From Schmidtea polychroa (Eukaryota): a stretch of 64,000 bases of DNA. Of this stretch, positions 11,301-33,549 are shown in pieces. Below the pieces are notes generated by a model. The model worked only from the letters and a program-made list of their open reading frames with translations, was not told the DNA's origin and made no database searches. The first letter of the stretch is position 1, and each line of letters opens with the position of its first letter. The stretch is taken from contig CM097885.1 of NCBI GenBank assembly GCA_044892525.1, positions 14,572,001-14,636,000 on the forward strand, in the 5' to 3' direction. The position numbers were made by a program, and so were the translations under genes.

Positions 11301-14300
11301 TTAGGACTCTGTTCAATTACCGGGTTAATAATCAGTAGAAAATGTCACCAAAGAACCAATACCATTTTAGTCACTTGCCTTGTGAGCTGCAGTACAACTA
11401 ATAACCCTGCAAGTTCCATCGGATCCATTACTTGATTTCTGTGAGGGTTCGAGTGGTAAAACTTGGCATGGTGAAGCATGCAAGTTGAAAAATATTCCCA
11501 AGAAAGCTTATTATGATGCCCTGGAATGAAATATTTCAGCTATTAGATCAGTGAAGGAGAAACTTATATAATTTATTAGCCATATTTATGAAACCTGATA
11601 ATTTGATATGTATATGCAACTTTTATCAATACTCGATCCTCGCTGTGACTTTTTTGAATGACTTTGACTAACTTATAATGACCTTCACCGATATTTCTAA
11701 CAATAACCTATTCCAGCTGCTTTTTACATGGTTCTTAATTATTATGTAATTCCTATTTCAATTGACTTTGACACACTTATCAATATTTCTAACTTCAATG
11801 ACCTTGACCTATTTCAAATAACCTTGATTTATTTTTAATGACCTTGACTTGAATGGCCTTTTACTAATTTGGACGACCTTGTGTAATAAACTTGACTTAC
11901 TTTCGAAAACTTTAACCAATATTTATAACTTACTTGAATGACCTTGACCTAATTTAGACAACCTTGACCAATATTTCTAATTTACTTTATTGACGTTTAC
12001 AAATTTCAAACGACCTTGACCTACATTTCTAACAGTAACCTACCTGAGTGACCTTGACTACCTTTAAACCGCTTTCAGCGCCTCTGTAACACCGCGTGAC
12101 AGATAAAAGTGCTTACTAAATGAGTTATTGTTGATGAAATTTAATGAGAATATTTCATATGGAAATGGAAATTATAAAGAGAAAACAGAAACCGCTTACC
12201 AATCAGATTGCTGTTGAACATATTGTAAATATAAACCGCCACGCGTTCATTTATGCACAACCCTTTCAACATGAAGAGGAAATTCAACAGAAACTCTGGA
12301 TTATCGATCAAATCTCCACAGTCTCGAATGAATTTAAAAAGCATCGACTGTCGATATGAACAATTGGATTTGATAGGCAAATTCTTGTAATTGCCAGCCG
12401 ATATCAATGATGCCGATAAATCGGTACCTGTCATGTCTTGCGGAGCCCAGAATTCCAATGTTAAGCTTTCCAAGTATTCATTATTAAATGGAATTGAAGA
12501 TTCAAACAATCTCTCAGGAGGCCCATGCACATTTCCAATTAATCCCATCAATGAGGAGAAATGAGTAACATTCGATGCAGTTCTTAAACTTTCCGTTTTT
12601 AAATCCTTCAGCATTTTCGGCATATAGATAATGAAATCGGTGACCAAATCATGAAAGCATTTTATCCAAATGTTCTGTAAAACAAAGTCAGAAATCTTTC
12701 CCGCGTTGAAATCCGTTTACCTGCTCATGGAATTCTTCAATTCCTGTTATTACGGTCAAAAATGAAAAGATTTCATAGAGATTTCCAGATTCGAGTTTCG
12801 ATTGGTCACAGTCCAAAATATCGTCATAATCTCCGAAATTGGTGGTCATTTGACAACTGTTAATGCATTTTTCCTGTTTCAAATGCGACACCTTCTGTAG
12901 GGAAATAATCCATGCCAGAAATATAACTTGATCAAAATTCTGAACGATATTTTTCATTTCATATTCTTTCATTTCGTTATCATTATTCCCATTAATATTC
13001 TTCGAAAGCAAATCGCTAATATTTCTCGTGTATTCGTCATCAGTAAAGAAAGGATGCGTGAGGCCTAAACCGATGGAATTCAACAAATAAAAAACGCCAT
13101 GAATGAAACCAACAATCCTGTGAATAATTCGTCGCGTTGTTTTCATTAATGACTGGATTAATTGAATCCATCAAACTGACTAGCAAATATACAAAGCATT
13201 TATCTACGATTTTAACTTCCCGCAAAGCAATTGTTTCATTCTCTTCATTCTGTAAAATTTATTCCAATGAAATTTACGAGTCGATTTATTGAGTAAATCA
13301 CATTATTGATTACAATTACTCAAATATAATGTTATCAAACAATATTAATAAGATGAAAAATCAATCATTAAAAGGTAGAAATAAGCAATATCGGGAACTA
13401 GGGCGGTTAATCAATAGGAATACCACAATAACCCTATTTATTGATATCCGTTAGCGGGTATATTTGTAAATATCGATAAAATAGTGCTATCGGTAAAATC
13501 TTTATTATTTTGGTCACCTTTGATCGTTTTCGTTTTTGGTGAAGGAAATTTGAATTTTGATATTTTGTCACATAGAAAATAGATAAAATATCGATAAAAT
13601 AGTGTAAAAAGCAGTCAATGATAGATCAAACGCATTTTATATAGTTTTGGACTCACGGATCGTGTCACAGCGAAGCCCAAAGCTAAGCGCAATAGTTATA
13701 GAGGCGGTTAATGACAAGCAGTGATTATATCCATTAAATTTACTGGTTTTTTGATTTGCTATCGCTGATTGGTTGAATTTATAATGAATGTTTCTGTATG
13801 ATTACAGCAATATATCGATAATTACCCCCCGAATAATTCGCATGGCGTTCCATTTGGCAATGTTATTCCCATTGATTGAAGCGTTTCATTTATTAAATAC
13901 GTATTAATATGTAGGATAATAAATAGGACAGCCCGTGTTACCCTCACCCCCCCACGCGCTCCACCCGCCTGCTACAGCCACCGCTACTAATGAAATATAT
14001 AATTATATAATAATTGCCCTAATAAATGTTCATAATTAATTATCTACATTAATAATTCACTAAACTATTCAAATATTAAGCAAAACAATTACCTTGATTT
14101 CTTTGTTGCTTTCCTTATAAAATTCCCGCATAAATTCGATTAATAATTTTGTATCAGCCGTATTAAGTGGACATTTGAAGCTTCGTAACAAAATACATTC
14201 AGCCAGTGTTTCTTTAATGCTTTGAAAAATTAAAAAAAACCGACGCCTGTGCCTAGCTGTTCCTAGAGCTCGTTGAGATTCCAGTAATTCGATTTCTTTA

Positions 14301-14949
14301 TTTATGTCTAGATTTTTTAATAAACCGATCAATTTCGGAAATAGGCCATGTTGAAATAAACTATCGCAAAAGGCTTGAGTGAAGTTTACAATTTCCACTG
14401 CTTTTGCATTGTCTGTTGTGATTGTTAAAAATAATTTTAGTAGATTTCGCAGAGCTTCTACTATTGTTTTTTGCGAATTATAATATTGAATTACTGCCAA
14501 TAATCCGCGAGTCATGTCAGGATTTGATGTTCGCTCACTTTCACCTAAGGAGTACAACTAGAGTAAATAAAGAGTACACTAAAATATATAATTTAACCGA
14601 ATAGTAATAATTCAACAGATGTTATTTCATTTAACTTAAATAAATCGCTTATAATTATTGTTTCCTGGATGAAATCTTGAGATAGTGTTATCTTTTGTTG
14701 GAAACCTGGAATTTGAATTGGATCTCTATAAGAATTTAATACTAAATTTCGATCATTTACATTTGAAGCCTATTAAGTTTAGATAAATAAATATGTAATA
14801 AATTAATAATTCACATCATGATCTAATATGTTCAAAAACACAGAACGATTTTTATTTAAAGTTTCAATAAACTCAGGAGCATAATCAAAAAGCTTTTGAA
14901 CAGCTAGTTTGTCAATAATATTGAACAATAAATTTCTAATTTCAAGCAT
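2318..14949 (-). CDS. NUP205: Nuclear pore complex protein Nup205, multi-exon (start codon approximate)
   Basis: Minus-strand ORF blocks from 14069-14557 down to 2318-2655 read as Nup205-like peptides in the expected order (PDMTRGLLAVIQYY, RALGTARHRR, QPTPNLGQYLMGF, KTCLHSLL, YLNSQGYLKH, ESCCFLIWYH). Adjacent blocks are joined by short GT-AG introns, and the last intron is 2656-4030. Family assigned by recalled similarity, not by a search. Confidence 0.88.
2660..4020. repeat. AT-rich degenerate tandem repeat filling the last Nup205 intron
   Basis: Same gagtctagaaat / aaactgaatt / aaaatcgaaa motifs repeated at about 2865, 3247 and 3523. Confidence 0.7.
11630..12070. repeat. Degenerate GACCTTGAC-containing tandem repeat in a Nup205 intron
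   Basis: About ten occurrences of (tg)accttgac-like motifs with irregular spacing. Confidence 0.65.
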
Positions 14950-15173: not shown

Positions 15174-15880
15174 TAACAAAAACTTTCGGCTTACAATTGA
15201 TTCAATTTTGTAATAAAAATTTATGACTAAAATTTAACAAAATTCAGTCATACTTTTTAATAATATGACTACCCAAAAAGTTAAATTTGATTAAATTGAA
15301 ATTGCTATTTAGCGGAAAAATTTATGCGTCATAGAGAAAATATTTTGAAACATTCATCTTTAATGATAATGGTGCTGGGCTAGAATGAATTTTCAATTTA
15401 TTTTGTTTTAATCTTACAATGAAGTGTCAACTAGGAAACTTACATAGCAAGCATAAAACAAAAAGTTAACAAAAATAATATAAAAAATTAATTGAAACAA
15501 AATAAACAACATAAGAGTAAAGTCACTAAAAACCAAATTAATAAAAAACAGAAAAAGTAAGAAGTAACAAATAATACACAAATTGGAAAAATAGAAAACC
15601 AAGATCAGTAATAAAGGGGGAACAAGAGTTACAAGCAATCAAGATCGAGAAAATAAAATGAAAACTTTAAAAAAGAAATCAAAAAATTTATACGCATATG
15701 AAAAAAGAACCAATCAAATAACGAGAATTAATATTTAAAAAAGAATTAAAAACTTTAAGAAATTAGCACACCTGCTCGATCCTGATTGGTTAAAAGCGCG
15801 ATTTTTTTTTAATTTTTAATTTTTAATTTTTATCTTTGTATGATTTGTTATTATGATGTGTGGTAAACGTTTCATAAAAT
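15174..15880 (+). repeat. Dispersed repeat, homologous to 33890-35300 and 36340-36410
   Basis: Shared strings taacaaaaactttcggcttacaattgatt, gggctagaatgaattt, gggggaacaagagttacaagcaatcaagatc and aaattagcacacctgctcgat. Confidence 0.85.
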
Positions 15881-16534
15881 TAAAAATCAGAAAAAGTAAA
15901 ACTAAGAAGGAAAATGTTAAATTAAAATTATTTCATGATTAAATTTTGTAAAATTAAAAGTGAAATTTAAATTTTTTGAAATATATTAGAATTAAAATGG
16001 TTTAAAATAAAAATGAATATTTTAATGTTAATTTTGAAATAAAATAATTTTTGTTAAAATTGCAATTCAAGTATGAATGTGGTATGTTTACGGTATGTTG
16101 ATATTGGTTGAAATTAAAATTTATATAAAGAAAATGTCGCAAGAATATTTGTTTATAAAAGCTGTTTTAAAAATGCAATGAAATATTATAGTAGGTAGTT
16201 AGTGGCCTACGGGAACAATAGGGGGGGGTAAAAATGTTGCAAACTTTTGATTGCATAACTTTTTCCGTAGACATTTTTTGATTACATAATTGTTGCTGTA
16301 ATGCCCAATGTATTCTGGGATTTTAAATACAAATTTTTTTTTTTTTTTTTTTTTTTTTTAATAAACAAGCCAAGGATAAATATTATTTGGGTGGGTCTCC
16401 TTGGTCCTGAGAATTTCAATAGAAAAAGGTAGTCTTCAATAAAAAAGCATGGATTTTTCACACTATAGAGAGGGGACCTTCTTGGTCATGAGAATTTCAA
16501 TAGAAAAGGTGGTTTACATTAAAAAACGCATAGT

Positions 16535-17170
16535 AAATTTTTAAAATAAAGCTAATTATGGTCCTAAAAAATTAAATTACAGTAAATGATGGGTCTAAAA
16601 ATTTAAGTAAATCAAGGTTCAGATTTATTTTTGAAATAAAGTAAATTATGGTCTAAATAAGTAAATTATGGGCTAAGATTTTTCAATTAAAGTAAATAAT
16701 GGTTCTAAAAAATTAAATTACAGTAAATTATGGTCCAAATTTTAAAATTAAAGTAAATTATGGTTCTTAAAAATTAAATTAAAGTAAATTATGGTCCTAA
16801 AAAATTAAATTACAGTAAATAATGGTCAAAAATTTTAAAATTAAAGTAAATTAAGGTTCTAAAATTTAAATTAAAGTTAATTAAGGTCCAAATTTTTAAA
16901 TTAAAGTAAATTAAAGTAAATAATGGTTCTAAAAAATTAAATTAAAGTAAATAATGGTCCTAAAAAATTAAATTACAGTAAATAATGGTCAAAAATTTTA
17001 AAATTAAAGTAAATTAAGGTTCTAAAATTTAAATTAAAGTTAATTAAGGTCCAAATTTTAAAATTAAATAATCAATGGTAAAAAAAATTTAAATTAAAGT
17101 TAAATAAGTAAATTAAAGTAATATTTTTTAAATAAGTAAATTAAAGTAATGTAATAAGTAAATTAAAGTA
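16535..17170. repeat. Subterminal ~30-bp tandem repeat array (aaattaaagtaaattatggtc...), mirrored at about 31190-31760
   Basis: Many imperfect copies of agtaaattatggtc/agtaaattaaggt at about 30-33 bp spacing. Confidence 0.85.
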
Positions 17171-17357
17171 AGATTTTTAAATTTATTAACAAAAATAGAA
17201 GGTGTTTGAGAATTGAAATTTTTTAATGGAAATTTTAATGAATTATTTTTTAAGTAATTTTTAATAGAAATTTTTATGAATAATTTTCAATGGAAATTTT
17301 TAATGGAAATTTTAATAGAATAATTTTTAAGATAATTTTTAATGAAAATTTTTATGA

Positions 17358-17395
<38 letters not shown>

Positions 17396-17582
17396 TAATA
17401 TTAATAATATATCAACCAAATACTATACAACACATAAAAAATTAACTAAACACATAAAAATAACTAGACACATAACAAAACATATAAACATTAACTAAAC
17501 ACATAAAAATGAACTAGACACATAACAAACATAAAAATTTACCAAATAACAAATGTAAAGATATAAAATTTATTCAATAAAA

Positions 17583-20500
17583 TTAGTCCTCATCGGACAA
17601 AATAACGTCATCGATATCGATGTCATCTTCTTCATTAAATTCTTCCTCATCTTCTCCATCATTTTCTCCATCATTTTCTTCCTCATCTTCTCCATCATTT
17701 TCTCCAACATTTTCTGAAACATTTTCTGCAACAATTTCTCCAACATTTTCTCCAATATTTAATTCACTTAATCTTACATGCCCATATGCAAGACTAGTAT
17801 TTTTCCCCACCCAAACCCTTTTGTCATCTTTGTTAGTTAGTGCTATTTTTGTGTTTTTAATTGTAAAAATTTGATGATTTTTGCTTGTTATTTTAGTCTG
17901 AGGAACCGAAAAAATCTGGTTAGTGTTATAACAATCGAGGTATGACTGATGTTTTATGTCACTACCTTTCAATGTTACACCTTTTTGCCTTTTTTGTTTC
18001 ATCATCACCCAACAAGCTATAACATTTAGGTCTAAGAAAAACCCACTCCTTATATTTAAGACCTTTATTCTCGTCTTTGAACTTTCCAATGACTGAATCA
18101 AGGTTCTTGCTATATAAGGAATGACAACTATTGTAATTGGAAGTATCCAATAAATTATCTCGAATCATTGCAGGTAAAAGAACCTCAAGTTTGCAGTTAA
18201 TGACTTCGAGGAAAAAAGAATCTGTATCACCAGCAACGATATTAATTTTACAATTAAACTCATTGCGAAATGATTCCAGATCCTTATATTGCAATTCATA
18301 CATTCTAAGTTTAGATAGATCAAGTACAGATTGACCAATGTAACTCGGTCTATCTAAACATATAGAATCTGAATTCAATAATGTTGCAATTAAATTATCT
18401 GCTATTTTAATAGATTTTTTAAAAGTCGGTTTTGACGAATATTTAACTAATTTACCGGCAGTTGTACAAAGACGAAGATTCATTCTTCTCTTTAAATTTT
18501 CAACTGTTTTGCCGTATAAACTGTTATTTAGCAATTTATAATAATTTTTATCTAAGTTATTTACGCTTTTTGATCTTAATTCGGTATTTGTATCTATATA
18601 TTTTTTAAAAATTGGTGATTGCTTAAATCTTACACCCCTATTTACACGTGTTACTTTAACACCAAGTTCCAAATATAATTTTAATAATCTCCAATGAATA
18701 ACATAATTAGATTTTGGAAGATGAGTTAATAATAATTTTTCAACCTTAGACCGAGCAGGTTTCATTTTTTCAGCAGCTACAGGGAAATCATCCAACTTAT
18801 CATGAAGCTCAGAAGGAATTACAAGATCAACTTCAAGTGTGTATCCATAAGACAAAGATTCAAGATTTAAATTCCTACATTCATCCATTATTTTATCAAA
18901 TCCATCAAGAACCCAACAAAATTCGCCACAAGGTAATGATTGACTTAAAGCCCACCCATAAAGATTATTAATATCTATATAAAGTAACTCGGTGTTCTCG
19001 TCGGTTTTTACGTAATGCTTATTCACAAAAGTAAGACCGCCTCTTATTCCACCCTCATAAAAGCTAAACATTTCGTTTTCAGTTATGAGTTCAATTGGTT
19101 CATTTAAAGATATTAATGCAGAAGACCAAGACATGCCTGGAATTCCGAAATAATTCAAAGGCTCTAATCTATTGTGAGCAATTGATTTCAACCTAAACTG
19201 ATGAAAGAAATCAGCCAAAAGAAAACAATCAAGTTTTAGGTAGATCATCATATAATCTAATAAAGTTCTGCAATTAGATTCTACCCAAATCTCCTGAGCT
19301 TTTTCATACTCAAGCTCAGTGACACCCTCCCAGATTGGTGGTAATTCATACGTAGTTTGTAGAACATCTAAAGAAGTGGCGAAATTATAAGGGAAGATTC
19401 CTTTTTCACTTACTATGGTGCCAGAAAAAGCAGAATTAGTAAAAGGCAAAGAATTCAAAGTTTTGACTGCTTTAGCCAAAGAATCATTGACAAATTGATA
19501 TGAATCAATGAATCTTATGCTAATTTTGCCTAAATGAGCAATCAAAGATATAAATTTTTCCGTAGTTATTGGGATGCACCCTAAATTCCAATTTTTAAAT
19601 TTATTTAATCCATATTTAAGTATATGATGCATATCGTATCCCTTCAAGTTGTGAAATACGATAGGCAAAATTTTATTTATTTTTCTATTTACGTTACATG
19701 TGCTACAAGCTGCACCCAAGTATTTGCCCGTAAAATGATCGTGATCTCTAACAGGATCCACGATAGATTTCAAACAAAGATAACAAACCGTTGAATTAAT
19801 GAATTGTTGTTGCTCAATTTTAGTTAATTTAATCATTGGTTTCCTACCCATTTTATAATAAAAAGGAAGAACCTTATTTAATGCTATATCCTCTATAGCA
19901 CTTAAAAAACTCTCGACGCAATCTAAACCTATAAACTGTTGATAGGATTTAGATCCGTCAAAGTTATTTACTAGTAAAAGACCAGCAGATATTGGCATGT
20001 GTCGCTGAAAATGATCATTATCACAAGGTAAAATAGCCTCAAAATCGGCATAAACTACGAAAGGAGGAGTTACTGTTTTCGACCAGTCAGTAAACTGTAA
20101 GAATTTATTTTGAGGGAAAGTATAAAGAGTTGTTCCTAATTGATTGCGTTTGCATAATATTTCATGTTTTTCTAGTGCGTTTCTATTATTAAACCCATTC
20201 AAACACCGATGGCACCATAATGAACGTATGCGTGTAGGACAACTAGTGTTTATGTGGCAATTCAGTAACCTATTTAAATTGCTTATAGCAATGTAATGGA
20301 AATTGTTCCCTTTATTTAATAATAGTAAATTAATTACTGTTCCATTTAAAACTTTGGAACGATGTATAATGTCTAAATGGGGGTGTTTTAAAACGTAATT
20401 ATCTATTAATTGTTTGTTATTGTCATAAGAAAAAACATTAATTATTAAACCAGGATTTTTGGCCTCGAATTTTCTAATATCTTTTAATTTCATGGGTAAG

Positions 20501-22001
20501 TCCAATGGATTATATATTAACTCAGATAAATTATAACTGGATGTTCTATTTCTATATTGTTTAATAACTTCATCATATTTTAAAATAGCTAAAATGCTAT
20601 ATAAAAAACATGAATCATCGGTGTTTTTTACATTAATTAAACAATATTTATTTTTTAGACAAGTAGGTAGTTCAATGAAACTCCTACCACTTAATCTACT
20701 TAGCCTACTTATCTTTGTTATGGTGAAGTGAATTTCTGTTATTTTTTTTATGATCCAGCTACTTCCTAACTCTGTGATATTACTTATTTTCTCGTTTAGT
20801 TCCCTAATGCCTTCGTCAAAAAATGAGGCAGTTAAAGGTTTTGCGTAATTCGAAATATTATTAACCTTTATTTCCCCATCTTTTTCAAATTCGATTGTTA
20901 TTCCGAATTGAATTTTGACGGAGCCTAATTCGTTAATAATATCTCGTAATTTTATAATTAATTGTTCAGGAAATATTATTTCCTTTATATTTAAGTCGCT
21001 AGTATTTAAACTTAATATTTGATGGGTACCCCTTAGATCTTTTTGTATTATGGGAACATTACCCCCTATTTGTATTATATTTAATCCATCCCAAGAATCA
21101 AAGGAATTGAATAATCCGACCTGGGATTCAACAAAAGGCAATCCGACCTGGGATTCAACAAAAGATAATCCGTCCTGGGATTCAACAACCAATCCATCAT
21201 TGGATTCAACAAAAGACAATCCAGCCTGGGATTCAACCTCTAATCCGACCTGGGATTCAAAAGAAGAAGTATCTAATTTAATTTTTTTATTTGTATTATT
21301 TTTTTCTATAGTTGATGGTCTTTTAAAAACACTATCTTTTTTAAAATTAAACCTATCTAAATGATGTTTATGTTTATTATAAAAAACGCTATATGTTACA
21401 GGGTCACTAGTCTTACATATGGGACATATAAAAAAAGTTTTATTATAATATTTTTTCGTGTAATAATTCTCCATTATAGAATGGCAATTATTATCATGTT
21501 CTTTCGATGAACAATAATTTGGGTAAAGTATACCTATAAAATAAAAATTTAATAAAAAAATATATATATATATATAATTTAAATGAAATATTTTAATAAA
21601 TGTTTACGCATAAATTTACAAATTTTATTTACTAAAAAAAATAAAAATTTACTAAATTAAAAATATTAACATTTAATTAAATAAAAAATTATATTAAATT
21701 TCCTTTAAATTATATAAAAAAGTAATCAATACTTACATTGTAAATTTTCATTTCGATTTATTGACACATTGACATAATTTTTCTCTTTATTCGTATTACC
21801 TAAATTATTAATTAATTAAATCAATTAATAAAAAATTATGTTTACTTTTTCTTTTCAAATTTCCTTTAATCTTCGATTTTAAATTGTCTTCATTAATATT
21901 ATCTAAATTAATTAATAAATTAATTAATAAATAAATTAAAATTTACCAAATTCCTGAATTTTTCCTCGAACATTCATAACGTTTTCTATTAAAGAATTCA
22001 T
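17583..22001 (-). CDS. Protein-primed family B DNA polymerase (pPolB), left-arm copy, with predicted spliced 5' exons and a C-terminal tail in the +1 frame
   Basis: The 1170-aa ORF 17962-21474 has Exo motifs YADFE, FHNLKGYD and YLKLD, polymerase motifs YIDINNLYG, KLLNNSLYGK and GDTDS, and an endonuclease VII-like insert (CYLC...DHDHFTG...CSTCN). Predicted upstream exons are 21947-22001, 21846-21902 and 21737-21799, with exon 4 starting at 21533. The tail (KGV...KIALTNKDDKR) lies in ORF 17583-18101. Confidence 0.9.
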
Positions 22002-22391
22002 TTTTAAAGGTTAACTATTTGTTAAATGTGACTAATAATTGATCATTGTTTATAGATTATTATTGTTTATAGGAACAAATTCTAACCAATCAAAATCAAG
22101 GAAGGGTAGGGAAAAATATATTACGTTGCGGTATTTTAAAATTAAAATTTATTTTAAAAACACATTTTGACGTTAAAGTCGAGTTATGTAACAAAGACAT
22201 AATAAACTTATTATTTACTACAAATATTTCACCTATCAAATACCTAACTAGAGATGCTATATATTGATTGTTCATAAAAGCAAACTTAATCATAAATTTC
22301 TGTATATTATTTTGTAAATTATTTCTGTAAATTAAATTTTGTATATTATTTCTGTAAATTATCAAGTAAATTTAAAGTTCTTGATAAGGTT

Positions 22392-23517
22392 AAATTAAGT
22401 AATCAATGGTCAAATATTTTAAATAAGTAAATTAAAGTAATAATTTTTAAATAAGTAATGTAATAAGCAAATTAAAGTAAGATTTTAAATTTATTAACAA
22501 AATAATAGAAGGTGTTTGAGAATTGAAATTTTTTAATGAAATTTTTATGGAATAATTTTTAAGATAATTTTTAATGAAAATTTTTATGAAATATTTTTCA
22601 ATGAAAATTTTAAATGAAAACTTTTATGAAATATTTTTCAATGACAATTTTAGAAAAAATTTTTTGAAATAATTTTAGATTGAAATTATGTAAATTAAGT
22701 GATACATTTTTAAATTAAAGTAATCAATGGTCTATATTTTAAACTTCTATATTCGGTAAACAAGGACTAAATTAAGTAAATAAAGGGTTAAATTAAAGAA
22801 AATTATGACTAAGTTAATTAGATTTAAAGAATAATTACCTTTTCATTTAACACTACAGTGTTAATTTTTACCATTTTAGAATAATATTTTTTATCAAAGT
22901 TCTTATCTTGATTTATTTAATTTTAATTGAATGTAATGACAAAATAGAGCGTGTTGTCTTCAATTTTAATGAATTAATTTGAAAGATTATTTAGATAAAT
23001 GTTGGTGTTTAAGGTATTCATTAGTAATTATTTTTTTAGAGTTGATGGTTTTTGTGAATTTTTATCATTTTCGTGAATATCATGTGGATTGAATGAATAT
23101 TTAAAAATTTTAAGTTAGTTCTAAATAAATTTAATTAATTTCTTGATAATTGGATGCATTTTAATGGATTGGTTTTTTTTTAAATAAAAATTATTTTTAA
23201 TGACAGTCAGGTTAATAATCATGTGATAGGATATAACTTTGTAATAATATTTTTTTTTCATATTTCTAAGAATTTCATGTTGATTTATTAAAAAATTTAA
23301 AGTTTTAATGATGATTTTAATTGAATTTCTTGATAATTTGTTAAATTTTAAATAAAAATTAATTTTTTTTTAAATGACTGTTATGTTAATAATTAAGTAA
23401 TTGGTTTAATTTTAGATGACTTTGTAATGCATTTGACTAAATATTTTTTTTTCAATAATTTTCTAAGAATATTTACACATTGATGAACTTTTTAAAAAAA
23501 ACATAAGCTAAGAAAAC
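22392..23517 (+). repeat. 1.13-kb direct repeat, copy 1 (spacer of element A)
   Basis: Near-identical to 24841-25968, from aaattaagtaatcaatggtc to aacataagctaagaaa. Confidence 0.92.
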
Positions 23518-23801
23518 AGTAGGTAGATAGTAGCCCACTGCAGCAATGACCCCCCACCCCGGGAGGGGGGTGGGGGGGGGGGGGTTCTGCTGCAACTTTT
23601 GATTGCGCAATTGTTGCAACTAGTTTTTTTTTGTTGTATTTTTTTTTTGTATTATTACGCAATTGTATTATTTTTTTTTCTAGAATTTTCAATACAAAAA
23701 AAAAACAAGTTGCAACAATTGCGCAATCAAATGTTGCAGCAAAAAAAAAGATGCAGCATAAAAAAAGGCTTGCATTTGCAGCGGGCTCCTATCTACCTAC
23801 T
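23518..23801. repeat. Internal 284-bp hairpin cassette with Polinton-like termini
   Basis: Outer stem AGTAGGTAGATAGTAGCCCACTGC...GCAGCGGGCTCCTATCTACCTACT. Inner stem gctgcaacttttgattgcgcaattgttgcaact...agttgcaacaattgcgcaatcaaatgttgcagc. Long G tract at 23561-23584. Confidence 0.88.
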
Positions 23802-23849
23802 ATAAACAGCGTCTGAGAAATGAAAATTTTTTCAATGACAATTTTACAT

Positions 23850-24840
23850 TAAAATTATGGTCTAAAATTTTCAATTAAGTAAATTATGGTCTAAAATTTT
23901 CAATTAAGTAAATTAAGGTCTAAAATTTTCAATTAAGTAAATTATGGTCTAAAATTTTCAATTAAGTAAATTAAGGTCTAAAATTTTAAATTAAAGTAAA
24001 TTATGGTATATATTTTTAAACTTAAGTAAATTAAAGATAAATAAGCAAATTAAGGTCTAAAATTTCCAATTAAGTAAATTAAGGTCTAAAATTTTAAATT
24101 AAAGTAAATTATGGTATATATTTTTAAACTTAAGTAAATTAAAGATAAATAAGCAAATTAAGGTCTAAAATTTCCAATTAAGTAAATTAAGGTCTAAAAT
24201 TTTCAATTAAGTAAATTATGGTCTAAAATTTTCAATTAAGTAAATTAAGGTCTAAAATTTTAAATTAAAGTAAATTATGGTATATATTTTTAAACTTAAG
24301 TAAATTAAAGATAAATAAGCAAATTAAGGTCTAAAATTTCCAATTAAGTAAATTAAGGTCTAAAATTTTCAAATAAGTAAATTATGGTCTAAAATTTTAC
24401 ATGAAATTATGGTCTAAAATTTTCAACTAAGTATATTATGGTCTAAAATTTTAAATTAAAGTAAATTAAAGATAAATAAGCAAATTAAGGTCTAAAATTT
24501 TCAATTAAGCAATTTAAGGTCTAAAATTTTCAAATAAGTAAATTATGGTCTAAAATTTTACATGAAATTAAGGTTTAAAATTTTCAATTGAGTTCTAAAA
24601 TAAAGTCTAAAATTTCAATTAAGTAAATTATGGTATATATTTTTAAACTTAAGTAAATTAAAGATAAATAAGCAAATTAAGGTCTAAAATTTCAATTAAG
24701 TAAATTATGGTCTAAAAATTTCAATTAAAGTAAATTAAGGTCCAAATTTGAATTAAAGTTAATTAAGGTTCAAAATTTAAAATTAAAGTAAATAAATGTT
24801 CTAAAAAATTAAATTAAAGTAAATTAAGGTCCAAATTTTT
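23850..24840. repeat. 29-bp tandem repeat array (aaattttcaattaagtaaattaaggtcta)
   Basis: Direct reading shows many units with some higher-order blocks; related to the subterminal arrays of the arms. Confidence 0.9.
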
Positions 24841-25968
24841 AAATTAAGTAATCAATGGTCAAATATTTTAAATAAGTAAATTAAAGTAATAATTTTTAAA
24901 TAAGTAATGTAATAAGCAAATTAAAGTAAGATTTTAAATTTATTAACAAAATAATAGAAGGTGTTTGAGAATTGAAATTTTTTAATGAAATTTTTATGGA
25001 ATAATTTTTAAGATAATTTTTAATGAAAATTTTTATGAAATATTTTTCAATGAAAATTTTAAATGAAAACTTTTATGAAATAATTTTCAATGACAATTTT
25101 AGAAAAAATTTTTTGAAATAATTTTAGATTGAAATTATGTAAATTAAGGGATACATTTTTAAATTAAAGTAATCAATGGTCTATATTTTAAACTTCTATA
25201 TTCGGTAAACAAGGACTAAATTAAGTAAATAAAGGGTTAAATTAAAGAAAATTATGACTAAGTTAATTAGATTTAAAGAATAATTACCTTTTCATTTAAC
25301 ACTACAGTGTTAATTTTTACCATTTTAGAATAATATTTTTTATCAAAGTTCTTATCTTGATTTATTTAATTTTAATTGAATGTAATGACAAAATAGAGCG
25401 TGTTGTCTTCAATTTTAATGAATTAATTTGAAAGATTATTTAGATAAATTTTGGTGTTTAAGGTATTCATTAGTAATTATTTTTTTAGAGTTGATGGTTT
25501 TTGTGAATTTTTATCATTTTCGTGAATATCATGTGGATTGAATGAATATTTAAAAATTTTAAGTTAGTTCTAAATAAATTTAATTAATTTCTTGATAATT
25601 GGATGCATTTTAATTGATTGGTTTTTTTTTTAAATAAAAATTATTTTTAATGACAGTCAGGTTAATAATCATGTGATAGGATATAACTTTGTAATAATAT
25701 TTTTTTTTCATATTTCTAAGAATTTCATGTTGATTTATTAAAAAATTTAAAGTTTTAATGATGATTTTAATTGAATTTCTTGATAATTTGTTAAATTTTA
25801 AATAAAAATTAATTTTTTTTTTAAATGACTGTTATGTTAATAATTAAGTAATTGGTTTAATTTTAGATGACTTTGTAATGCATTTGACTAAATATTTTTT
25901 TTTCAATAATTTTCTAAGAATATTTACACATTGATGAACTTTTTAAAAAAAACATAAGCTAAGAAACC
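24841..25968 (+). repeat. 1.13-kb direct repeat, copy 2
   Basis: Near-identical to 22392-23517; abuts the inner end of the right arm. Confidence 0.92.
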
Positions 25969-26269
25969 AGTTAACCTTATCAAGAACTTTAAATTTACTT
26001 GATAATTTACAGAAATAATATACAAAATTTAATTTACAGAAATAATTTACAAAATAATATACAGAAATTTATGATTAAGTTTGCTTTTATGAACAATCAA
26101 TATATAGCATCTCTAGTTAGGTATTTGATAGGTGAAATATTTGTAGTAAATAATAAGTTTATTATGTCTTTGTTACATAACTCGACTTTAACGTCAAAAT
26201 GTGTTTTTAAAATAAATTTTAATTTTAAAATACCGCAACGTAATATATTTTTCCCTACCCTTCCTTGAT

Positions 26270-26335
26270 TTTGATTGGTTAGAATTTGTTCCTATAAACA
26301 ATAATAATCTATAAACAATGATCAATTATTAGTCA
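26270..26335 (+). promoter_or_regulatory. Putative Pol II promoter of pPolB (mirrored at about 22029-22094)
   Basis: Reverse CCAAT (gattgg, about 26273), TATAAA at 26293 and 26310, and Inr-like ttagtc at about 26329, all just upstream of ATG 26363. The AT-rich context makes chance matches plausible. Confidence 0.4.
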
Positions 26336-26362
26336 CATTTAACAAATAGTTAACCTTTAAAA

Positions 26363-29300
26363 ATGAATTCTTTAATAGAAAACGTTATGAATGTTCGAGG
26401 AAAAATTCAGGAATTTGGTAAATTTTAATTTATTTATTAATTAATTTATTAATTAATTTAGATAATATTAATGAAGACAATTTAAAATCGAAGATTAAAG
26501 GAAATTTGAAAAGAAAAAGTAAACATAATTTTTTATTAATTGATTTAATTAATTAATAATTTAGGTAATACGAATAAAGAGAAAAATTATGTCAATGTGT
26601 CAATAAATCGAAATGAAAATTTACAATGTAAGTATTGATTACTTTTTTATATAATTTAAAGGAAATTTAATATAATTTTTTATTTAATTAAATGTTAATA
26701 TTTTTAATTTAGTAAATTTTTATTTTTTTTAGTAAATAAAATTTGTAAATTTATGCGTAAACATTTATTAAAATATTTCATTTAAATTATATATATATAT
26801 ATATTTTTTTATTAAATTTTTATTTTATAGGTATACTTTACCCAAATTATTGTTCATCGAAAGAACATGATAATAATTGCCATTCTATAATGGAGAATTA
26901 TTACACGAAAAAATATTATAATAAAACTTTTTTTATATGTCCCATATGTAAGACTAGTGACCCTGTAACATATAGCGTTTTTTATAATAAACATAAACAT
27001 CATTTAGATAGGTTTAATTTTAAAAAAGATAGTGTTTTTAAAAGACCATCAACTATAGAAAAAAATAATACAAATAAAAAAATTAAATTAGATACTTCTT
27101 CTTTTGAATCCCAGGTCGGATTAGAGGTTGAATCCCAGGCTGGATTGTCTTTTGTTGAATCCAATGATGGATTGGTTGTTGAATCCCAGGACGGATTATC
27201 TTTTGTTGAATCCCAGGTCGGATTGCCTTTTGTTGAATCCCAGGTCGGATTATTCAATTCCTTTGATTCTTGGGATGGATTAAATATAATACAAATAGGG
27301 GGTAATGTTCCCATAATACAAAAAGATCTAAGGGGTACCCATCAAATATTAAGTTTAAATACTAGCGACTTAAATATAAAGGAAATAATATTTCCTGAAC
27401 AATTAATTATAAAATTACGAGATATTATTAACGAATTAGGCTCCGTCAAAATTCAATTCGGAATAACAATCGAATTTGAAAAAGATGGGGAAATAAAGGT
27501 TAATAATATTTCGAATTACGCAAAACCTTTAACTGCCTCATTTTTTGACGAAGGCATTAGGGAACTAAACGAGAAAATAAGTAATATCACAGAGTTAGGA
27601 AGTAGCTGGATCATAAAAAAAATAACAGAAATTCACTTCACCATAACAAAGATAAGTAGGCTAAGTAGATTAAGTGGTAGGAGTTTCATTGAACTACCTA
27701 CTTGTCTAAAAAATAAATATTGTTTAATTAATGTAAAAAACACCGATGATTCATGTTTTTTATATAGCATTTTAGCTATTTTAAAATATGATGAAGTTAT
27801 TAAACAATATAGAAATAGAACATCCAGTTATAATTTATCTGAGTTAATATATAATCCATTGGACTTACCCATGAAATTAAAAGATATTAGAAAATTCGAG
27901 GCCAAAAATCCTGGTTTAATAATTAATGTTTTTTCTTATGACAATAACAAACAATTAATAGATAATTACGTTTTAAAACACCCCCATTTAGACATTATAC
28001 ATCGTTCCAAAGTTTTAAATGGAACAGTAATTAATTTACTATTATTAAATAAAGGGAACAATTTCCATTACATTGCTATAAGCAATTTAAATAGGTTACT
28101 GAATTGCCACATAAACACTAGTTGTCCTACACGCATACGTTCATTATGGTGCCATCGGTGTTTGAATGGGTTTAATAATAGAAACGCACTAGAAAAACAT
28201 GAAATATTATGCAAACGCAATCAATTAGGAACAACTCTTTATACTTTCCCTCAAAATAAATTCTTACAGTTTACTGACTGGTCGAAAACAGTAACTCCTC
28301 CTTTCGTAGTTTATGCCGATTTTGAGGCTATTTTACCTTGTGATAATGATCATTTTCAGCGACACATGCCAATATCTGCTGGTCTTTTACTAGTAAATAA
28401 CTTTGACGGATCTAAATCCTATCAACAGTTTATAGGTTTAGATTGCGTCGAGAGTTTTTTAAGTGCTATAGAGGATATAGCATTAAATAAGGTTCTTCCT
28501 TTTTATTATAAAATGGGTAGGAAACCAATGATTAAATTAACTAAAATTGAGCAACAACAATTCATTAATTCAACGGTTTGTTATCTTTGTTTGAAATCTA
28601 TCGTGGATCCTGTTAGAGATCACGATCATTTTACGGGCAAATACTTGGGTGCAGCTTGTAGCACATGTAACGTAAATAGAAAAATAAATAAAATTTTGCC
28701 TATCGTATTTCACAACTTGAAGGGATACGATATGCATCATATACTTAAATATGGATTAAATAAATTTAAAAATTGGAATTTAGGGTGCATCCCAATAACT
28801 ACGGAAAAATTTATATCTTTGATTGCTCATTTAGGCAAAATTAGCATAAGATTCATTGATTCATATCAATTTGTCAATGATTCTTTGGCTAAAGCAGTCA
28901 AAACTTTGAATTCTTTGCCTTTTACTAATTCTGCTTTTTCTGGCACCATAGTAAGTGAAAAAGGAATCTTCCCTTATAATTTCGCCACTTCTTTAGATGT
29001 TCTACAAACTACGTATGAATTACCACCAATCTGGGAGGGTGTCACTGAGCTTGAGTATGAAAAAGCTCAGGAGATTTGGGTAGAATCTAATTGCAGAACT
29101 TTATTAGATTATATGATGATCTACCTAAAACTTGATTGTTTTCTTTTGGCTGATTTCTTTCATCAGTTTAGGTTGAAATCAATTGCTCACAATAGATTAG
29201 AGCCTTTGAATTATTTCGGAATTCCAGGCATGTCTTGGTCTTCTGCATTAATATCTTTAAATGAACCAATTGAACTCATAACTGAAAACGAAATGTTTAG

Positions 29301-30781
29301 CTTTTATGAGGGTGGAATAAGAGGCGGTCTTACTTTTGTGAATAAGCATTACGTAAAAACCGACGAGAACACCGAGTTACTTTATATAGATATTAATAAT
29401 CTTTATGGGTGGGCTTTAAGTCAATCATTACCTTGTGGCGAATTTTGTTGGGTTCTTGATGGATTTGATAAAATAATGGATGAATGTAGGAATTTAAATC
29501 TTGAATCTTTGTCTTATGGATACACACTTGAAGTTGATCTTGTAATTCCTTCTGAGCTTCATGATAAGTTGGATGATTTCCCTGTAGCTGCTGAAAAAAT
29601 GAAACCTGCTCGGTCTAAGGTTGAAAAATTATTATTAACTCATCTTCCAAAATCTAATTATGTTATTCATTGGAGATTATAAAAATTATATTTGGAACTT
29701 GGTGTTAAAGTAACACGTGTAAATAGGGGTGTAAGATTTAAGCAATCACCAATTTTTAAAAAATATATAGATACAAATACCGAATTAAGATCAAAAAGCG
29801 TAAATAACTTAGATAAAAATTATTATAAATTGCTAAATAACAGTTTATACGGCAAAACAGTTGAAAATTTAAAGAGAAGAATGAATCTTCGTCTTTGTAC
29901 AACTGCCGGTAAATTAGTTAAATATTCGTCAAAACCGACTTTTAAAAAATCTATTAAAATAGTAGATAATTTAATTGCAACATTATTGAATTCAGATTCT
30001 ATATGTTTAGATAGACCGAGTTACATTGGTCAATCTGTACTTGATCTATCTAAACTTAGAATGTATGAATTGCAATATAAGGATCTGGAATCATTTCGCA
30101 ATGAGTTTAATTGTAAAATTAATATCGTTGCTGGTGATACAGATTCTTTTTTCCTCGAAGTCATTAACTGCAAACTTGAGGTTCTTTTACCTGCAATGAT
30201 TCGAGATAATTTATTGGATACTTCCAATTACAATAGTTGTCATTCCTTATATAGCAAGAACCTTGATTCAGTCATTGGAAAGTTCAAAGACGAGAATAAA
30301 GGTCTTAAATATAAGGAGTGGGTTTTTCTTAGACCTAAATGTTATAGCTTGTTGGGTGATGATGAAACAAAAAAGGCAAAAAGGTGTAACATTGAAAGGT
30401 AGTGACATAAAACATCAGTCATACCTCGATTGTTATAACACTAACCAGATTTTTTCGGTTCCTCAGACTAAAATAACAAGCAAAAATCATCAAATTTTTA
30501 CAATTAAAAACACAAAAATAGCACTAACTAACAAAGATGACAAAAGGGTTTGGGTGGGGAAAAATACTAGTCTTGCATATGGGCATGTAAGATTAAGTGA
30601 ATTAAATATTGGAGAAAATGTTGGAGAAATTTTTGCAGAAAATGTTTCAGAAAATGTTGGAGAAAATGATGGAGAAGATGAGGAAGAAAATGATGGAGAA
30701 AATGATGGAGAAGATGAGGAAGAATTTAATGAAGAAGATGACATCGATATCGATGACGTTATTTTGTCCGATGAGGACTAA
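26363..30781 (+). pseudogene. pPolB, right-arm copy, with a private nonsense mutation
   Basis: Matches the left copy except TTA>TAA at 29680-29682 and two visible missense changes (IADN>IVDN, EIVAE>EIFAE). Predicted exons 26363-26417, 26462-26518, 26565-26627 and from 26831. AATAAA at 30790 follows the stop at 30781. Confidence 0.9.
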
Positions 30782-30968
30782 TTTTATTGAATAAATTTTA
30801 TATCTTTACATTTGTTATTTGGTAAATTTTTATGTTTGTTATGTGTCTAGTTCATTTTTATGTGTTTAGTTAATGTTTATATGTTTTGTTATGTGTCTAG
30901 TTATTTTTATGTGTTTAGTTAATTTTTTATGTGTTGTATAGTATTTGGTTGATATATTATTAATATTA

Positions 30969-31006
<38 letters not shown>

Positions 31007-32292
31007 TCATAAAAATTTTCATTAAAAATTATCTTAAAAATTATTCTATTAAAATTTCCATTAAAAATTACCATTGAAAATTATTCATAAAAATTTCTAT
31101 TAAAAATTACTTAAAAAATAATTCATTAAAATTTCCATTAAAAAATTTCAATTCTCAAACACCTTCTATTTTTGTTAATAAATTTAAAAATCTTACTTTA
31201 ATTTACTTATTACATTACTTTAATTTACTTATTTAAAAAATATTACTTTAATTTACTTATTTAACTTTAATTTAAATTTTTTTTACCATTGATTATTTAA
31301 TTTTAAAATTTGAACCTTAATTAACTTTAATTTAATTTTTAGAACCTTAATTTACTTTAATTTTAAAATTTTTGACCATTATTTACTGTAATTTAATTTT
31401 TTAGAACCATTATTTACTTTAATTTACTTTAATTTAAAAATTTGGATCATAATTTACTTTAATTTAAATTTTTGGACTGTAATTCAAAAATTTTGACCAT
31501 AATTTACTTTAATTTAATTTTTAAGAACCATAATTTACTTTAATTTTAAAATTTGGACCATAATTTACTGTAATTTAATTTTTTAGAACCATTATTTACT
31601 TTAATTGAAAAATCTTAGCCCATAATTTACTTATTTAGACCATAATTTACTTTATTTCAAAAATAAATCTGAACCTTGATTTACTTAAATTTTTAGACCC
31701 ATCATTTACTGTAATTTAATTTTTTAGGACCATAATTTGCTTTATTTTAAAAATTTACTATGCGTTTTTTAATGTAAACCACCTTTTCTATTGAAATTCT
31801 CATGACCAAGAAGATCCCCTCACTATAGTGTGAAAAATCCATGCTTTTTTATTGAAGACTACCTTTTTCTATTGAAATTCTCAGGACCAAGGAGACCCAC
31901 CCAAATAATATTTATCCTTGGCTTGTTTATTGAAAAAAAAAAAAAAAAAAAAAAAATTTTGTATTTAAAATCCCAGAAAACATTGGGCATTACAGCAACA
32001 ATTATGTAATCAAAAAATGTCTACGGAAAAAGTTATGCAATCAAAAGTTTGCAACATTTTTACCCCCCCCCCCCCCCCCTATTGTTCCCGTAGGCCACTA
32101 ACTACCTACTTATTATTTTGAATTTATTTAGTCTTAGTAATTTATTTGATGATAGAATAATTGATTGTTATAGCTTTTAACACAATAAATGGAGAAATGG
32201 GAGAAAACACCAAAGGATAGTGGAGGTGATTCACACGGAAAGCCAAGGTAGCAAGCCAAATACTGCACATAACTAGCCATAATAATAATAAC

Positions 32293-32326
<34 letters not shown>

Positions 32327-32743
32327 GTAATAAAAAAAAAACACACACATAGATTTTTTAAAGAAAGTTATATGTATTTGATAAAATTTCATATATTTAC
32401 ACACACACACACAATAATTCTCTACCCCATAGCACACACACACACACAATAATTCTCTACCCCATAGCACACACACATAGATTTTTATAAATTTTAAAGA
32501 AATTTAATAAAATTTCATATTTTTACACACATAATAATTCTCTACTTAATACAACACACACAGAAAACATATATTTTTTTTAAAATTTAAAGAAATTTAC
32601 ATGTATTTGATAAAATTCCATTATTATTACCTTTGTTTGATATGTATATTATAAGGTTTAAAATTATTTGGACCTTGAACCCTTCGAGGGTATGACCTTT
32701 GAAGGTGTGGCCATCATACTCACCTGTGTATTAGCTTTTGAAT

Positions 32744-33447
<704 letters not shown>

Positions 33448-33549
33448 CGAAGGAATGTGACCCTTTGAAAGTTATTGACCCATCATTTTATTGTTTTATA
33501 GATGTGTTGATTTTCCTTTAAATTATTTGATATATATTTTATTAATTAA

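What the first reader, a model, noticed from the sequence alone, without database searches (positions are those of the whole stretch)
16190..32110. Giant palindromic, PolB-only Polinton-like element integrated with a clean 6-bp TSD
Seen: two near-identical 6.2-kb inverted arms make up about 78% of a 15.9-kb insertion. Each arm holds an outward-pointing pPolB gene. The ends are AGT...ACT, the TSD is TATTAT, and no integrase, capsid, ATPase or protease is visible. Established: Polintons have AG...CT ends, 6-bp TSDs and usually non-coding TIRs of up to about 1 kb, and they encode their own integrase. Inference: this is either a snap-back or TIR-expanded replicon produced by template switching during protein-primed replication and integrated in trans, or a distinct PolB-only linear-plasmid-like class.
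Basis: partly seen in the sequence, partly recalled or inferred. Interest (0 to 1): 0.92.

Follow-up and report, generated by a model that had tools for sequence, protein, structure and literature searches.

The report
Palindromic polymerase-only Maverick-derived transposon family
This is a real, recently inserted copy of a high-copy jumping element in an animal genome, built as a giant hairpin-shaped mirror image that keeps only a self-priming DNA polymerase gene in each half and probably borrows the inserting enzyme from related virus-like elements.

Summary
The insertion spans window 16190-32110 (15,921 bp), has a TATTAT duplication on both sides, and has two 6.2-kb inverted arms. Each arm carries an outward-pointing pPolB gene. 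No other recognisable gene is present.

It is not a one-off and not a fold-back misassembly. The exact 17-base terminus occurs 793 times in the genome (control 0). Ten of 11 copies have perfect 6-bp TSDs. Thirty of the 40 best PolB matches lie in 15 inverted pairs.

In the typical member the palindrome is complete. Its dyad is a 284-bp mini-palindrome that carries Polinton-type ends and whose own flanks are inverted. That is a snap-back signature. The "spacer" of this copy is a rearrangement.

Lineage variants sit in both arms (293 of 303). PolB is under purifying selection (pN/pS 0.12-0.26), and 19 of 30 loci keep an open frame. This copy's two PolB genes are both frameshifted.

My reading is a Maverick/Polinton-derived fold-back replicon that has lost integrase and capsid genes, copies itself with its own PolB, and is inserted in trans. 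At least 111 Maverick-type integrase genes exist in the genome. The trans step and the replication mechanism are inferred, not shown.

The parts
16184..16189 (.). left target-site duplication TATTAT
   Evidence: identical hexamer at the right flank
16190..22393 (.). left arm of the palindrome
   Evidence: inverted copy of 25971-32110, 98.2% over 6,215 columns; 8 mismatches in the 5,460-nt gapless block
16190..16530 (+). terminal 341 bp (T terminus, starts AGTAGGTAGTTAGTGGC)
   Evidence: 40 of 40 scored places 91-100% identical, out of 1,493 candidates; the exact 17-mer occurs 401 forward + 392 reverse, control 0
16659..17105 (.). subterminal 31-bp tandem array (14 units)
   Evidence: the mirror array lies at 31257-31632 with a different unit number
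17583..17961 (-). out-of-frame remainder of the PolB C-terminus (acidic tail), cut off by a frameshift near codon 1165
   Evidence: uninterrupted copies read 1279-1295 aa and end in this acidic tail; both arms of this copy share the shift, which lies in a homopolymer run
17962..21474 (-). left pPolB gene, 1170-aa frame (zinc ribbon, Cys-protease-like domain, C2H2, HNH-like insert, exonuclease, polymerase)
19690..19797 (-). His-Me/HNH (endonuclease VII-like) insert of PolB, residues 560-595, between Exo I and Exo II
   Evidence: E 0.0028, below cut-off in this copy; 16 of 16 relatives match PF02945, best E 6.6e-07; C564 C567 D577 H578 H580 C590 C593 N594 invariant
21475..22393 (-). region upstream of the left PolB, inner end of the arm
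22390..23520 (+). segment X, copy 1; in direct orientation here, inverted in canonical members
   Evidence: among 13 paired X occurrences, 12 are (-,+) and only this copy is (+,+)
23518..23801 (.). mini-palindrome m with Polinton-type ends (AGTAGGTAGATAG ... CTATCTACCTACT); it is the dyad centre in canonical members
   Evidence: folds as a DNA hairpin at -83.8 kcal/mol, z -13.4, 0 of 200 shuffles as good; 1,757 candidates in the genome
23852..24907 (.). central 29-bp tandem array, related to the subterminal arrays
24839..25971 (+). segment X, copy 2 (canonical orientation, abuts the right arm)
   Evidence: 99.4% identical to copy 1
25971..32110 (.). right arm of the palindrome
26890..30402 (+). 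right pPolB gene, with a TAA at 29680-29682 and the shared frameshift
32111..32116 (.). right target-site duplication TATTAT

Best explanation
The insertion is one copy of a family of about 400 Maverick/Polinton-derived elements. The family has lost integrase, capsid, ATPase and protease genes and consists of a PolB-bearing half-element folded back on itself.

**Shown**
- The canonical member is a complete palindrome: terminus, 31-bp array, PolB, upstream region, X, 29-bp array, mini-palindrome m, then the mirror image.
- The flanks of m are inverted repeats rather than a TSD.
- Copies sit between perfect 6-bp TSDs with 5'-AG...CT-3' ends.
- Lineage-defining variants are present in both arms.
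- PolB evolves under purifying selection.

**Inferred**
- The palindrome arose when a strand ending in the hairpin m snapped back and was copied by the strand-displacing protein-primed polymerase.
- The element is still replicated from its T termini by its own PolB. During that replication the two arms are re-templated on each other (fold-back synthesis, or repair in the long hairpin of the displaced strand), so new copies are born with identical arms.
- The double-stranded product is inserted by an rve integrase supplied in trans by the Mavericks of the same genome.

This particular copy is a rearranged and disabled member. Its left X is flipped, the left central array is missing, and both PolB genes are frameshifted.
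For: **Family and structure**
- The exact 17-base terminus occurs 401 + 392 times, control 0.
- 29 of 30 terminus loci carry the array and the PolB 3' end just inside the terminus.
- 30 of the 40 best PolB places form 15 (-,+) pairs, and the 10 singles lie in contexts compatible with a half.
- 12 of 13 X pairs are inverted. m lies between them in 7 of these 12.
- One copy is a single palindromic alignment of 15,176 bp. Its m flanks read ...CTGTTTAT | m | ATAAACAG....
- m folds at -83.8 kcal/mol, z -13.4.

**Mobility**
- 10 of 11 copies have perfect 6-bp TSDs with different sequences.
- One copy is nested inside a sister element.

**Arm concert**
- For 19 of 22 arms the nearest neighbour is the partner arm.
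- In 9 canonical elements, variants shared with other copies are in both arms 293 times and in one arm 10 times.
- An internal deletion of X is present in both halves of one copy.
- One chimeric copy keeps arms that differ at 48 sites, so in-place conversion is not fast.

**PolB in use**
- pN/pS is 0.12-0.26 in all 53 comparisons with at least 40 differences.
- 19 of 30 loci keep an open 1279-1295-aa frame.
- The best fold match is phi29 DNA polymerase, E 3.4e-17.

**Integrase available in trans**
- At least 111 Maverick-type integrase frames at E <= 1e-56, most of them open.
- None lies within 20 kb of the 40 best PolB places.
- Distant relatives of this PolB sit beside an rve integrase in 4 of 4 long contigs.
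Against: - No integrase-bearing element with this terminus was found. Of 16 integrase loci on the part of C1 where termini are listed, only one (C1:80198065) lies within 10 kb of a T 17-mer. The one integrase locus in the range of the 13-mer list has no such 13-mer within 20 kb.
- Private variants are in both arms 25 times and in one arm 32 times. Homogenisation in place by gene conversion is therefore not excluded, although unsampled relatives could explain the 25.
- Three elements, this one included, carry the same disabling change in both arms.
- Only 4 centres were read base by base: 2 palindromic, 1 chimeric, and this one.
- The 13.3-kb size class was not read through its centre.
- No read-level, RNA or extrachromosomal evidence was obtained.
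- All structural evidence comes from one assembly.
Confidence: 0.58

Rival explanations
1. It is an ordinary, very long-TIR non-autonomous Polinton. The palindrome formed once. Since then the whole element is copied or moved as a unit, and the arms are kept alike by gene conversion between the inverted repeats in chromosomal master copies. There is no fold-back step in each cycle.
For: All copies share the same derived layout, which is compatible with a single origin. Twenty-five private variants are present in both arms. Three elements share disabling changes between their arms. Arm-to-arm conversion is well known for closely spaced inverted repeats (recalled, not from a call).
Against: The chimeric copy keeps 48 arm differences unconverted. 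Private variants are more often in one arm (32) than in both (25). The centre shows several isoforms, which suggests repeated template switching.
Confidence: 0.25
2. The copies are defective by-products made again and again from full, autonomous Mavericks, like the snap-back defective genomes of adenovirus or parvovirus. The selection seen on PolB then acts in the parents, not in the palindromes.
For: Young, high-copy Mavericks and at least 111 integrase genes exist in the genome (earlier notes e1-7879957 and e1-7879963). Snap-back defective genomes are a known outcome of protein-primed replication (recalled).
Against: All sampled copies share the same breakpoints, the same X, the same arrays and m, which argues for one origin. 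None of the 40 best PolB places lies within 20 kb of a Maverick-type integrase. Synonymous divergence of up to 6.8% separates sublineages that all have the palindromic layout.
Confidence: 0.08
3. The element is fully autonomous. The conserved HNH-like nuclease inside PolB makes the staggered target cut, and the polymerase joins or copies the element in without any integrase.
For: The HNH motif is invariant in 16 of 16 relatives. No integrase could be tied to the terminus.
Against: The same HNH insert occurs in the PolBs of full elements that carry an rve integrase (L124 and L086; PMC10748475, passages read). A uniform 6-bp TSD with AG...CT ends is the Polinton integrase signature.
Confidence: 0.06
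4. The palindrome is an assembly artefact caused by fold-back chimeric reads or a collapsed graph.
For: Two copies have flanks that are 100% and 99.93% inverted repeats over 1,500 bp, which could be local misassembly. All evidence comes from one assembly.
Against: Ten of 11 copies lie between different unique flanks with perfect TSDs. The arms of this copy differ at 14 sites and in array length. The dyad always falls on the same element, m. This copy sits upstream of an intact host nucleoporin gene.
Confidence: 0.02

Closest known systems
Polintons/Mavericks (polintoviruses, adintoviruses) with Alpha-type PolB
   Same: It has a protein-primed PolB of pfam03175 type with an N-terminal Cys-protease-like region. 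It has a 6-bp TSD, 5'-AG...CT-3' ends and terminal inverted repeats, and it lives in an animal genome that also holds many Maverick integrases (PMC8502044 and PMC10748475, passages read).
   Different: It has no integrase, capsid, ATPase or protease gene. PolB is present twice. The inverted repeats are 6.2 kb in this copy, or the whole half-element in canonical copies, whereas 100-1,500 bp is reported (PMC10748475). The whole element is a palindrome around a hairpin.
HNH-bearing pPolB2 of nematode and oomycete Polintons (Jeong et al. 2023, PMC10748475)
   Same: A nuclease of the HNH kind is inserted in a Polinton PolB, and that PolB clade occurs in elements with an integrase.
   Different: Homology of the two insertions was not tested. 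The insert here matches endonuclease VII (PF02945) and lies between Exo I and Exo II.
Snap-back or inverted-repeat defective genomes of adenovirus and parvovirus, and palindromes seeded by short inverted repeats (Tetrahymena rDNA, yeast and mammalian amplicons); recalled, no call
   Same: A large palindrome whose dyad is a short hairpin-forming inverted repeat, made when a strand folds back and is copied. One genome end is duplicated at both ends.
   Different: Here the product is a heritable, integrating, high-copy chromosomal family under selection, not a dead-end by-product or a host amplicon.
Foldback (FB) elements of Drosophila; recalled, no call
   Same: Very long inverted arms that contain tandem arrays of short repeats, and variable centres.
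   Different: FB arms are non-coding and move by a DDE transposase. This element carries a polymerase gene in each arm and has Polinton-type ends and TSD.
Bidnaviruses and linear pPolB plasmids
   Same: These are small replicons that kept a Polinton-type PolB (with the OTU-like domain in bidnaviruses; PMC8502044, passages read) and terminal repeats while dropping the integrase.
   Different: Those carry capsid/NS genes or an RNA polymerase and are not known as chromosomal TSD-flanked families. An episomal state is untested here.
Integrase-less two-gene Polinton noted by this scan in another genome (e1-7392035)
   Same: It keeps PolB, lacks an integrase, and is presumed to be inserted in trans.
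   Different: That element is 6.4 kb, is not palindromic and has a second gene. It was not examined here.

Membership tests
Polinton/Maverick (autonomous) | [quoted passage not shown] | tested here: met
   PF03175 E 2.4e-31; phi29 DNA polymerase is the best fold match, E 3.4e-17, TM 0.62 on the target; Exo I, Exo II and motifs A, B and C are invariant
Polinton/Maverick (autonomous) | element-encoded retrovirus-like (rve) integrase | tested here: not met
   no rve match in any frame of the element; none of at least 111 Maverick-type integrase places lies within 20 kb of the 40 best PolB places
Polinton/Maverick (autonomous) | capsid proteins, packaging ATPase, adenain-like protease | tested here: not met
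   outside PolB there is no frame of 100 aa or more, and 16 small frames gave no Pfam family over cut-off; caveat: Pfam has weak coverage of Polinton capsids, and spliced genes would be missed
Polinton/Maverick (autonomous) | 6-bp target-site duplication and 5'-AG...CT-3' ends | tested here: met
   TATTAT in this copy; 10 of 11 copies have perfect 6-bp TSDs
Polinton/Maverick (autonomous) | terminal inverted repeats of about 0.1-1.5 kb, non-coding | tested here: not met
   arms are 6.2 kb with a gene each; canonical copies are palindromic over 15,176 bp
Non-autonomous derivative of a resident Maverick | shares terminal sequence with an integrase-encoding partner in the same genome | tested here: inconclusive
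Alpha-type adintovirus PolB (OTU + pfam03175) | N-terminal OTU-like cysteine protease domain | tested here: inconclusive
   no Pfam OTU match even at E 10; a folded domain at residues 142-410 with invariant C289 and H393 and near-invariant D286 is compatible; no domain-level fold search was run
Snap-back (fold-back) replicon | dyad centre is a short hairpin-forming inverted repeat whose flanks are themselves inverted | tested here: met
   the fully palindromic copy read through its centre; hairpin energy; m lies between inverted X pairs in 7 of 12
Snap-back (fold-back) replicon | hairpin or free linear replication intermediates exist | not testable with these tools
Linear pPolB plasmid / bidnavirus-like episome | extrachromosomal genome with 5'-bound terminal protein | not testable with these tools
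   needs wet-lab work or raw reads

The most novel reading that the evidence does not exclude
A distinct kind of eukaryotic mobile element: a protein-primed 'rolling-hairpin' replicon. It keeps only its polymerase. In every cycle it copies one arm from the other by snapping back at a built-in terminal hairpin, so both polymerase genes and both origins are reborn identical. It then parasitises the integrase of resident Mavericks, in the way a satellite uses a helper. The same layout may exist in relatives that are 58% identical in protein sequence, whose contigs are 10.9-16.3 kb long.
Probability: 0.3. Interest if true: 0.85.

Novelty: new variant of a known kind. Interest (0 to 1): 0.72.

Why it matters
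Polintons/Mavericks are called self-synthesising, but their replication has never been observed. This family has stripped itself down to the polymerase and its origins, and it still multiplies to hundreds of copies under selection on that polymerase. That makes it a natural minimal system for studying protein-primed replication in an animal nucleus.

It also shows how a defective snap-back genome can become a successful lineage of its own. It illustrates a satellite-helper relationship among Mavericks. Finally, it provides hundreds of 13-16-kb perfect palindromes, which are likely hotspots of fold-back rearrangement and of assembly error.

Tried and rejected
- **Fetching whole copies.** Only three centre pieces were obtained. 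As a result, the 13.3-kb size class, the 15-17-kb pairs with ...GATAG ends and the candidate locus at C1:80.20 Mb were not read.
- **Reads.** The look-up of sequencing runs listed 20 holders from 8 studies.
- **Tying an integrase to the terminus.** Searches with rve (swamped by retrotransposons), Pox_A32 and adenain gave places that could not be linked to termini.
- **Viral-contig scan with PolB.** No relative was found.
- **Metagenome relatives at 45-59% identity.** They lie on 1-4.5-kb fragments that say nothing about architecture.
- **Rfam.** Only sub-threshold miRNA-like hairpin matches on m and on a flanking hairpin; no 7SL piece in this element.
- **PDB sequence search.** Nothing significant.
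- **Pfam OTU.** No match.
- **Earlier findings by sequence, place or relatives.** Nothing.
- **Literature.** Searches, and passages of seven papers, gave no description of a palindromic PolB-only Polinton derivative. Supplements were not opened.
- **Rejected idea.** I considered that m is a simple MITE insertion into an existing palindrome. Its flanks are inverted, not a direct TSD.
Full report
**1. The observation**

The element runs from AGTAGG at window 16190 to CCTACT at 32110, a length of 15,921 bp. TATTAT lies immediately outside both ends.

A self-comparison gives two inverted arms, 16190-22393 and 25971-32110. They are 98.2% identical over 6,215 columns. The differences are mostly unit-number changes in the 31-bp subterminal arrays. 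In a gapless block of 5,460 nt the arms differ at 8 sites, and in an outer block of 576 nt at 6 sites.

Each arm holds one outward-pointing gene: 17962-21474 on the minus strand and 26890-30402 on the plus strand. Several results identify it as a protein-primed family B polymerase:
- PF03175 matches at E 2.4e-31.
- The Exo and Pol motifs are invariant among 16 relatives.
- An AlphaFold model has mean pLDDT 74.6, and its best PDB match is phi29 DNA polymerase at E 3.4e-17.

Outside PolB there is no frame of 100 aa or more. None of 16 small frames reached a Pfam cut-off.

The host context is genuine chromosome. A multi-exon Nup205/Nup192 gene lies at 5061-14557 on the minus strand, with its 5' end about 1.6 kb from the insertion.

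**2. A family, not a one-off and not a misassembly**

The window is C1:14572001-14636000 of a 781-Mb animal genome.
- The 341-bp terminus has 1,493 candidate places. All 40 scored places are 91-100% identical.
- The exact 17-base end occurs 401 times forward and 392 times reverse, against 0 for the control. That suggests about 400 copies.
- On the listed part of C1, plus and minus ends pair at 8.7-16.8 kb.
- Of 11 copies with both ends in hand, 10 have perfect 6-bp TSDs, each with a different sequence.
- In 29 of 30 terminus loci the array and the PolB 3' end follow the terminus, so both ends of every sampled copy carry a polymerase tail.
- Of the 40 best PolB places, 30 form 15 pairs, always in (-,+) order and 3.3-15.8 kb apart. 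The other 10 are singles. Where segment X or m was also mapped nearby, their surroundings fit a half-palindrome.

**3. The centre, and what it says about origin**

In this copy the 3.6-kb centre holds, in order:
- X at 22390-23520;
- a 284-bp mini-palindrome, m, at 23518-23801, with Polinton-type ends AGTAGGTAGATAG ... CTATCTACCTACT;
- a short linker;
- a 29-bp array at 23852-24907;
- a second, direct copy of X at 24839-25971.

Three other copies were read through the centre.
- One is a single palindromic alignment of 15,176 bp. Its layout is arm, inverted X, inverted array, m, array, X, arm. The flanks of m are inverted (...CTGTTTAT | m | ATAAACAG...), not a direct TSD.
- A second has the same layout, and the same internal deletion of X is present in both halves.
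- The third is a chimera without m. Its arms belong to different sublineages.

The genome-wide positions agree with this picture. Among the 40 best X places there are 12 (-,+) pairs, one (+,+) pair (this copy) and 14 singles. m lies between the inverted X copies in 7 of the 12 pairs. For the T-terminus pairs that hold an m match, m lies within 0-490 bp of the geometric centre.

As single-stranded DNA, m folds into a hairpin of -83.8 kcal/mol (z -13.4; 0 of 200 shuffles as good).

A large palindrome whose dyad is a short hairpin with inverted flanks is what fold-back priming produces. The mechanism is recalled from adenovirus and parvovirus defective genomes and from palindromes seeded by short inverted repeats; it does not come from a call. 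The 'arms plus spacer' picture is a peculiarity of this rearranged copy.

**4. Arms evolve in concert, and the polymerase is under selection**

Thirty PolB loci were aligned.
- Within elements the arms are 99.7-99.98% identical in 9 of 11 elements. The median between elements is 98.5%.
- For 19 of 22 arms the nearest neighbour is the partner arm.
- In the 9 canonical elements (26 loci, 4,518 columns; the two aberrant elements were dropped), variants shared with other elements are in both arms 293 times and in one arm 10 times. Private variants are in both arms 25 times and in one arm 32 times.

A mutation therefore reaches both arms before a lineage spreads. Whether this happens during replication or by conversion in place is not settled. 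The chimera keeps 48 arm differences, which speaks against fast conversion in place. The 25 private two-arm variants speak for conversion, or for unsampled relatives.

An uninterrupted PolB frame is 1279-1295 aa and is found in 19 of 30 loci. Between sublineages pN/pS is 0.12-0.26 in all 53 comparisons with at least 40 differences, and pS reaches 6.8%. Because all these sublineages have the derived palindromic layout, the constraint acted within this family. The element depends on its own polymerase.

This copy is disabled. Both arms share a frameshift in a homopolymer run near codon 1165, and the right gene also has a TAA at 29680-29682.

**5. Integration**

Nothing in the element resembles an integrase. 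The TSD length and the AG...CT ends are those reported for Polintons (PMC10748475, passages: 13-25 kb, TIRs 100-1,500 bp, TSD 5-8 bp).

The PolB carries a conserved His-Me/HNH insert. PF02945 matches in 16 of 16 relatives, and the Cys, His and Asn residues are invariant. The same insert occurs in the PolBs of distant relatives that sit next to an rve integrase; an integrase is present in 4 of 4 long contigs, and the insert was detected in 2 of them. An HNH insert has also been described in Polinton pPolB2 (PMC10748475). The insert is therefore not a replacement for an integrase.

The genome holds at least 111 Maverick-type integrase frames (38-42% identical to a metagenomic Maverick integrase, E <= 1e-56, mostly open). 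Adenain-like and A32-like genes are present too.

I could not link any of them to the T terminus:
- None lies within 20 kb of the 40 best PolB places.
- Only 1 of 16 checkable integrase loci lies within 10 kb of a T 17-mer.
- One checkable locus has no AGTAGGTAGWTAG within 20 kb.

The 13-mer itself occurs 5,485 times (control 33) on several element types. These include m and a sister PolB element into which one copy has inserted. Integration in trans remains the best inference, but it is unproven.

**6. Comparison and novelty**

The element works like a Polinton for replication and insertion. It fails the membership tests for integrase, morphogenesis genes and TIR length.

Its PolB matches the Alpha type, OTU plus pfam03175 (PMC8502044, passages). 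The OTU fold was not tested here, and Pfam gives no match.

Planarian-type flatworm genomes are reported to hold many Mavericks that are targeted by piRNAs (passages of 10.64898/2025.12.11.693146 and PMC8532177). I did not establish the host species.

Seven literature searches and passages of seven papers gave no description of a palindromic, PolB-only Polinton derivative (41, 62, 64, 65, 90-92).

I rate it a new variant of a known kind. The boldest reading not excluded is a protein-primed rolling-hairpin satellite of Mavericks.

**7. Limits**

- All structure comes from one assembly.
- Only four centres were read.

Noticed in passing
L018/L003 (G000 C1:9121571-9134844) and L005/L011 (C1:42580487-42595094): The 1,500-bp host flanks on the two sides of these copies are inverted repeats of each other (100% and 99.93% identical). 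The palindrome therefore extends into chromosomal DNA. This is either a fold-back duplication triggered by the element or a local assembly error. At the second locus a further truncated terminus follows, with the matching TSD.
   Followed up: partly
L015 542-1500 with L006 1972-3210: One copy is inserted (TSD GAAATT) into a sister PolB-bearing element that is about 90% identical. The sister's terminus begins AGTAGGTAGTTAGGAGC, the same kind of end as the central mini-palindrome of canonical copies.
   Followed up: partly
G000 C1, first 9.9 Mb: At least a dozen plus/minus pairs of ends reading AGTAGGTAGATAG lie 15-17 kb apart. They form a second abundant element class of unknown gene content.
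   Followed up: no
G000, 111 places; C1:80198065-80199111: There are at least 111 near-identical, mostly open Maverick-type integrase frames. One lies 8-9 kb inside a T-type right terminus (C1:80207145) and is the only candidate found for a helper that shares the terminus.
   Followed up: no
window 5061-14557 (-): Exons of a host Nup205/Nup192 nucleoporin gene. The element sits about 1.6 kb upstream of its first detected exon.
   Followed up: partly
window 102-1271 (+): A fragment of a retrotransposon pol gene (RVT_1 followed by RNase H).
   Followed up: no
window 32737-33451, 32969-33162: Just right of the element there are long (AT)n tracts in inverted arrangement and a perfect 84-bp inverted repeat with a 26-nt loop. 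Rfam gives only sub-threshold miRNA-like matches there.
   Followed up: no
window 15174-15331 and 33891-34048: A 158-nt direct repeat (96% identical) lies on both sides of the element, about 0.9 and 1.8 kb outside its ends. It is probably copies of another short repeat family.
   Followed up: no
window 21113-21267 (-), PolB residues about 70-120: A 27-nt (9-aa) tandem repeat lies inside the PolB N-terminal region. It falls within the stretch of the model that is disordered (pLDDT below 50 at residues 40-138).
   Followed up: no
proteins P0004 and P0135-P0148: Relatives with 58% protein identity lie on public metagenome contigs of 10.9-16.3 kb, the size of a whole element of this family. The contigs could not be fetched.
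   Followed up: no
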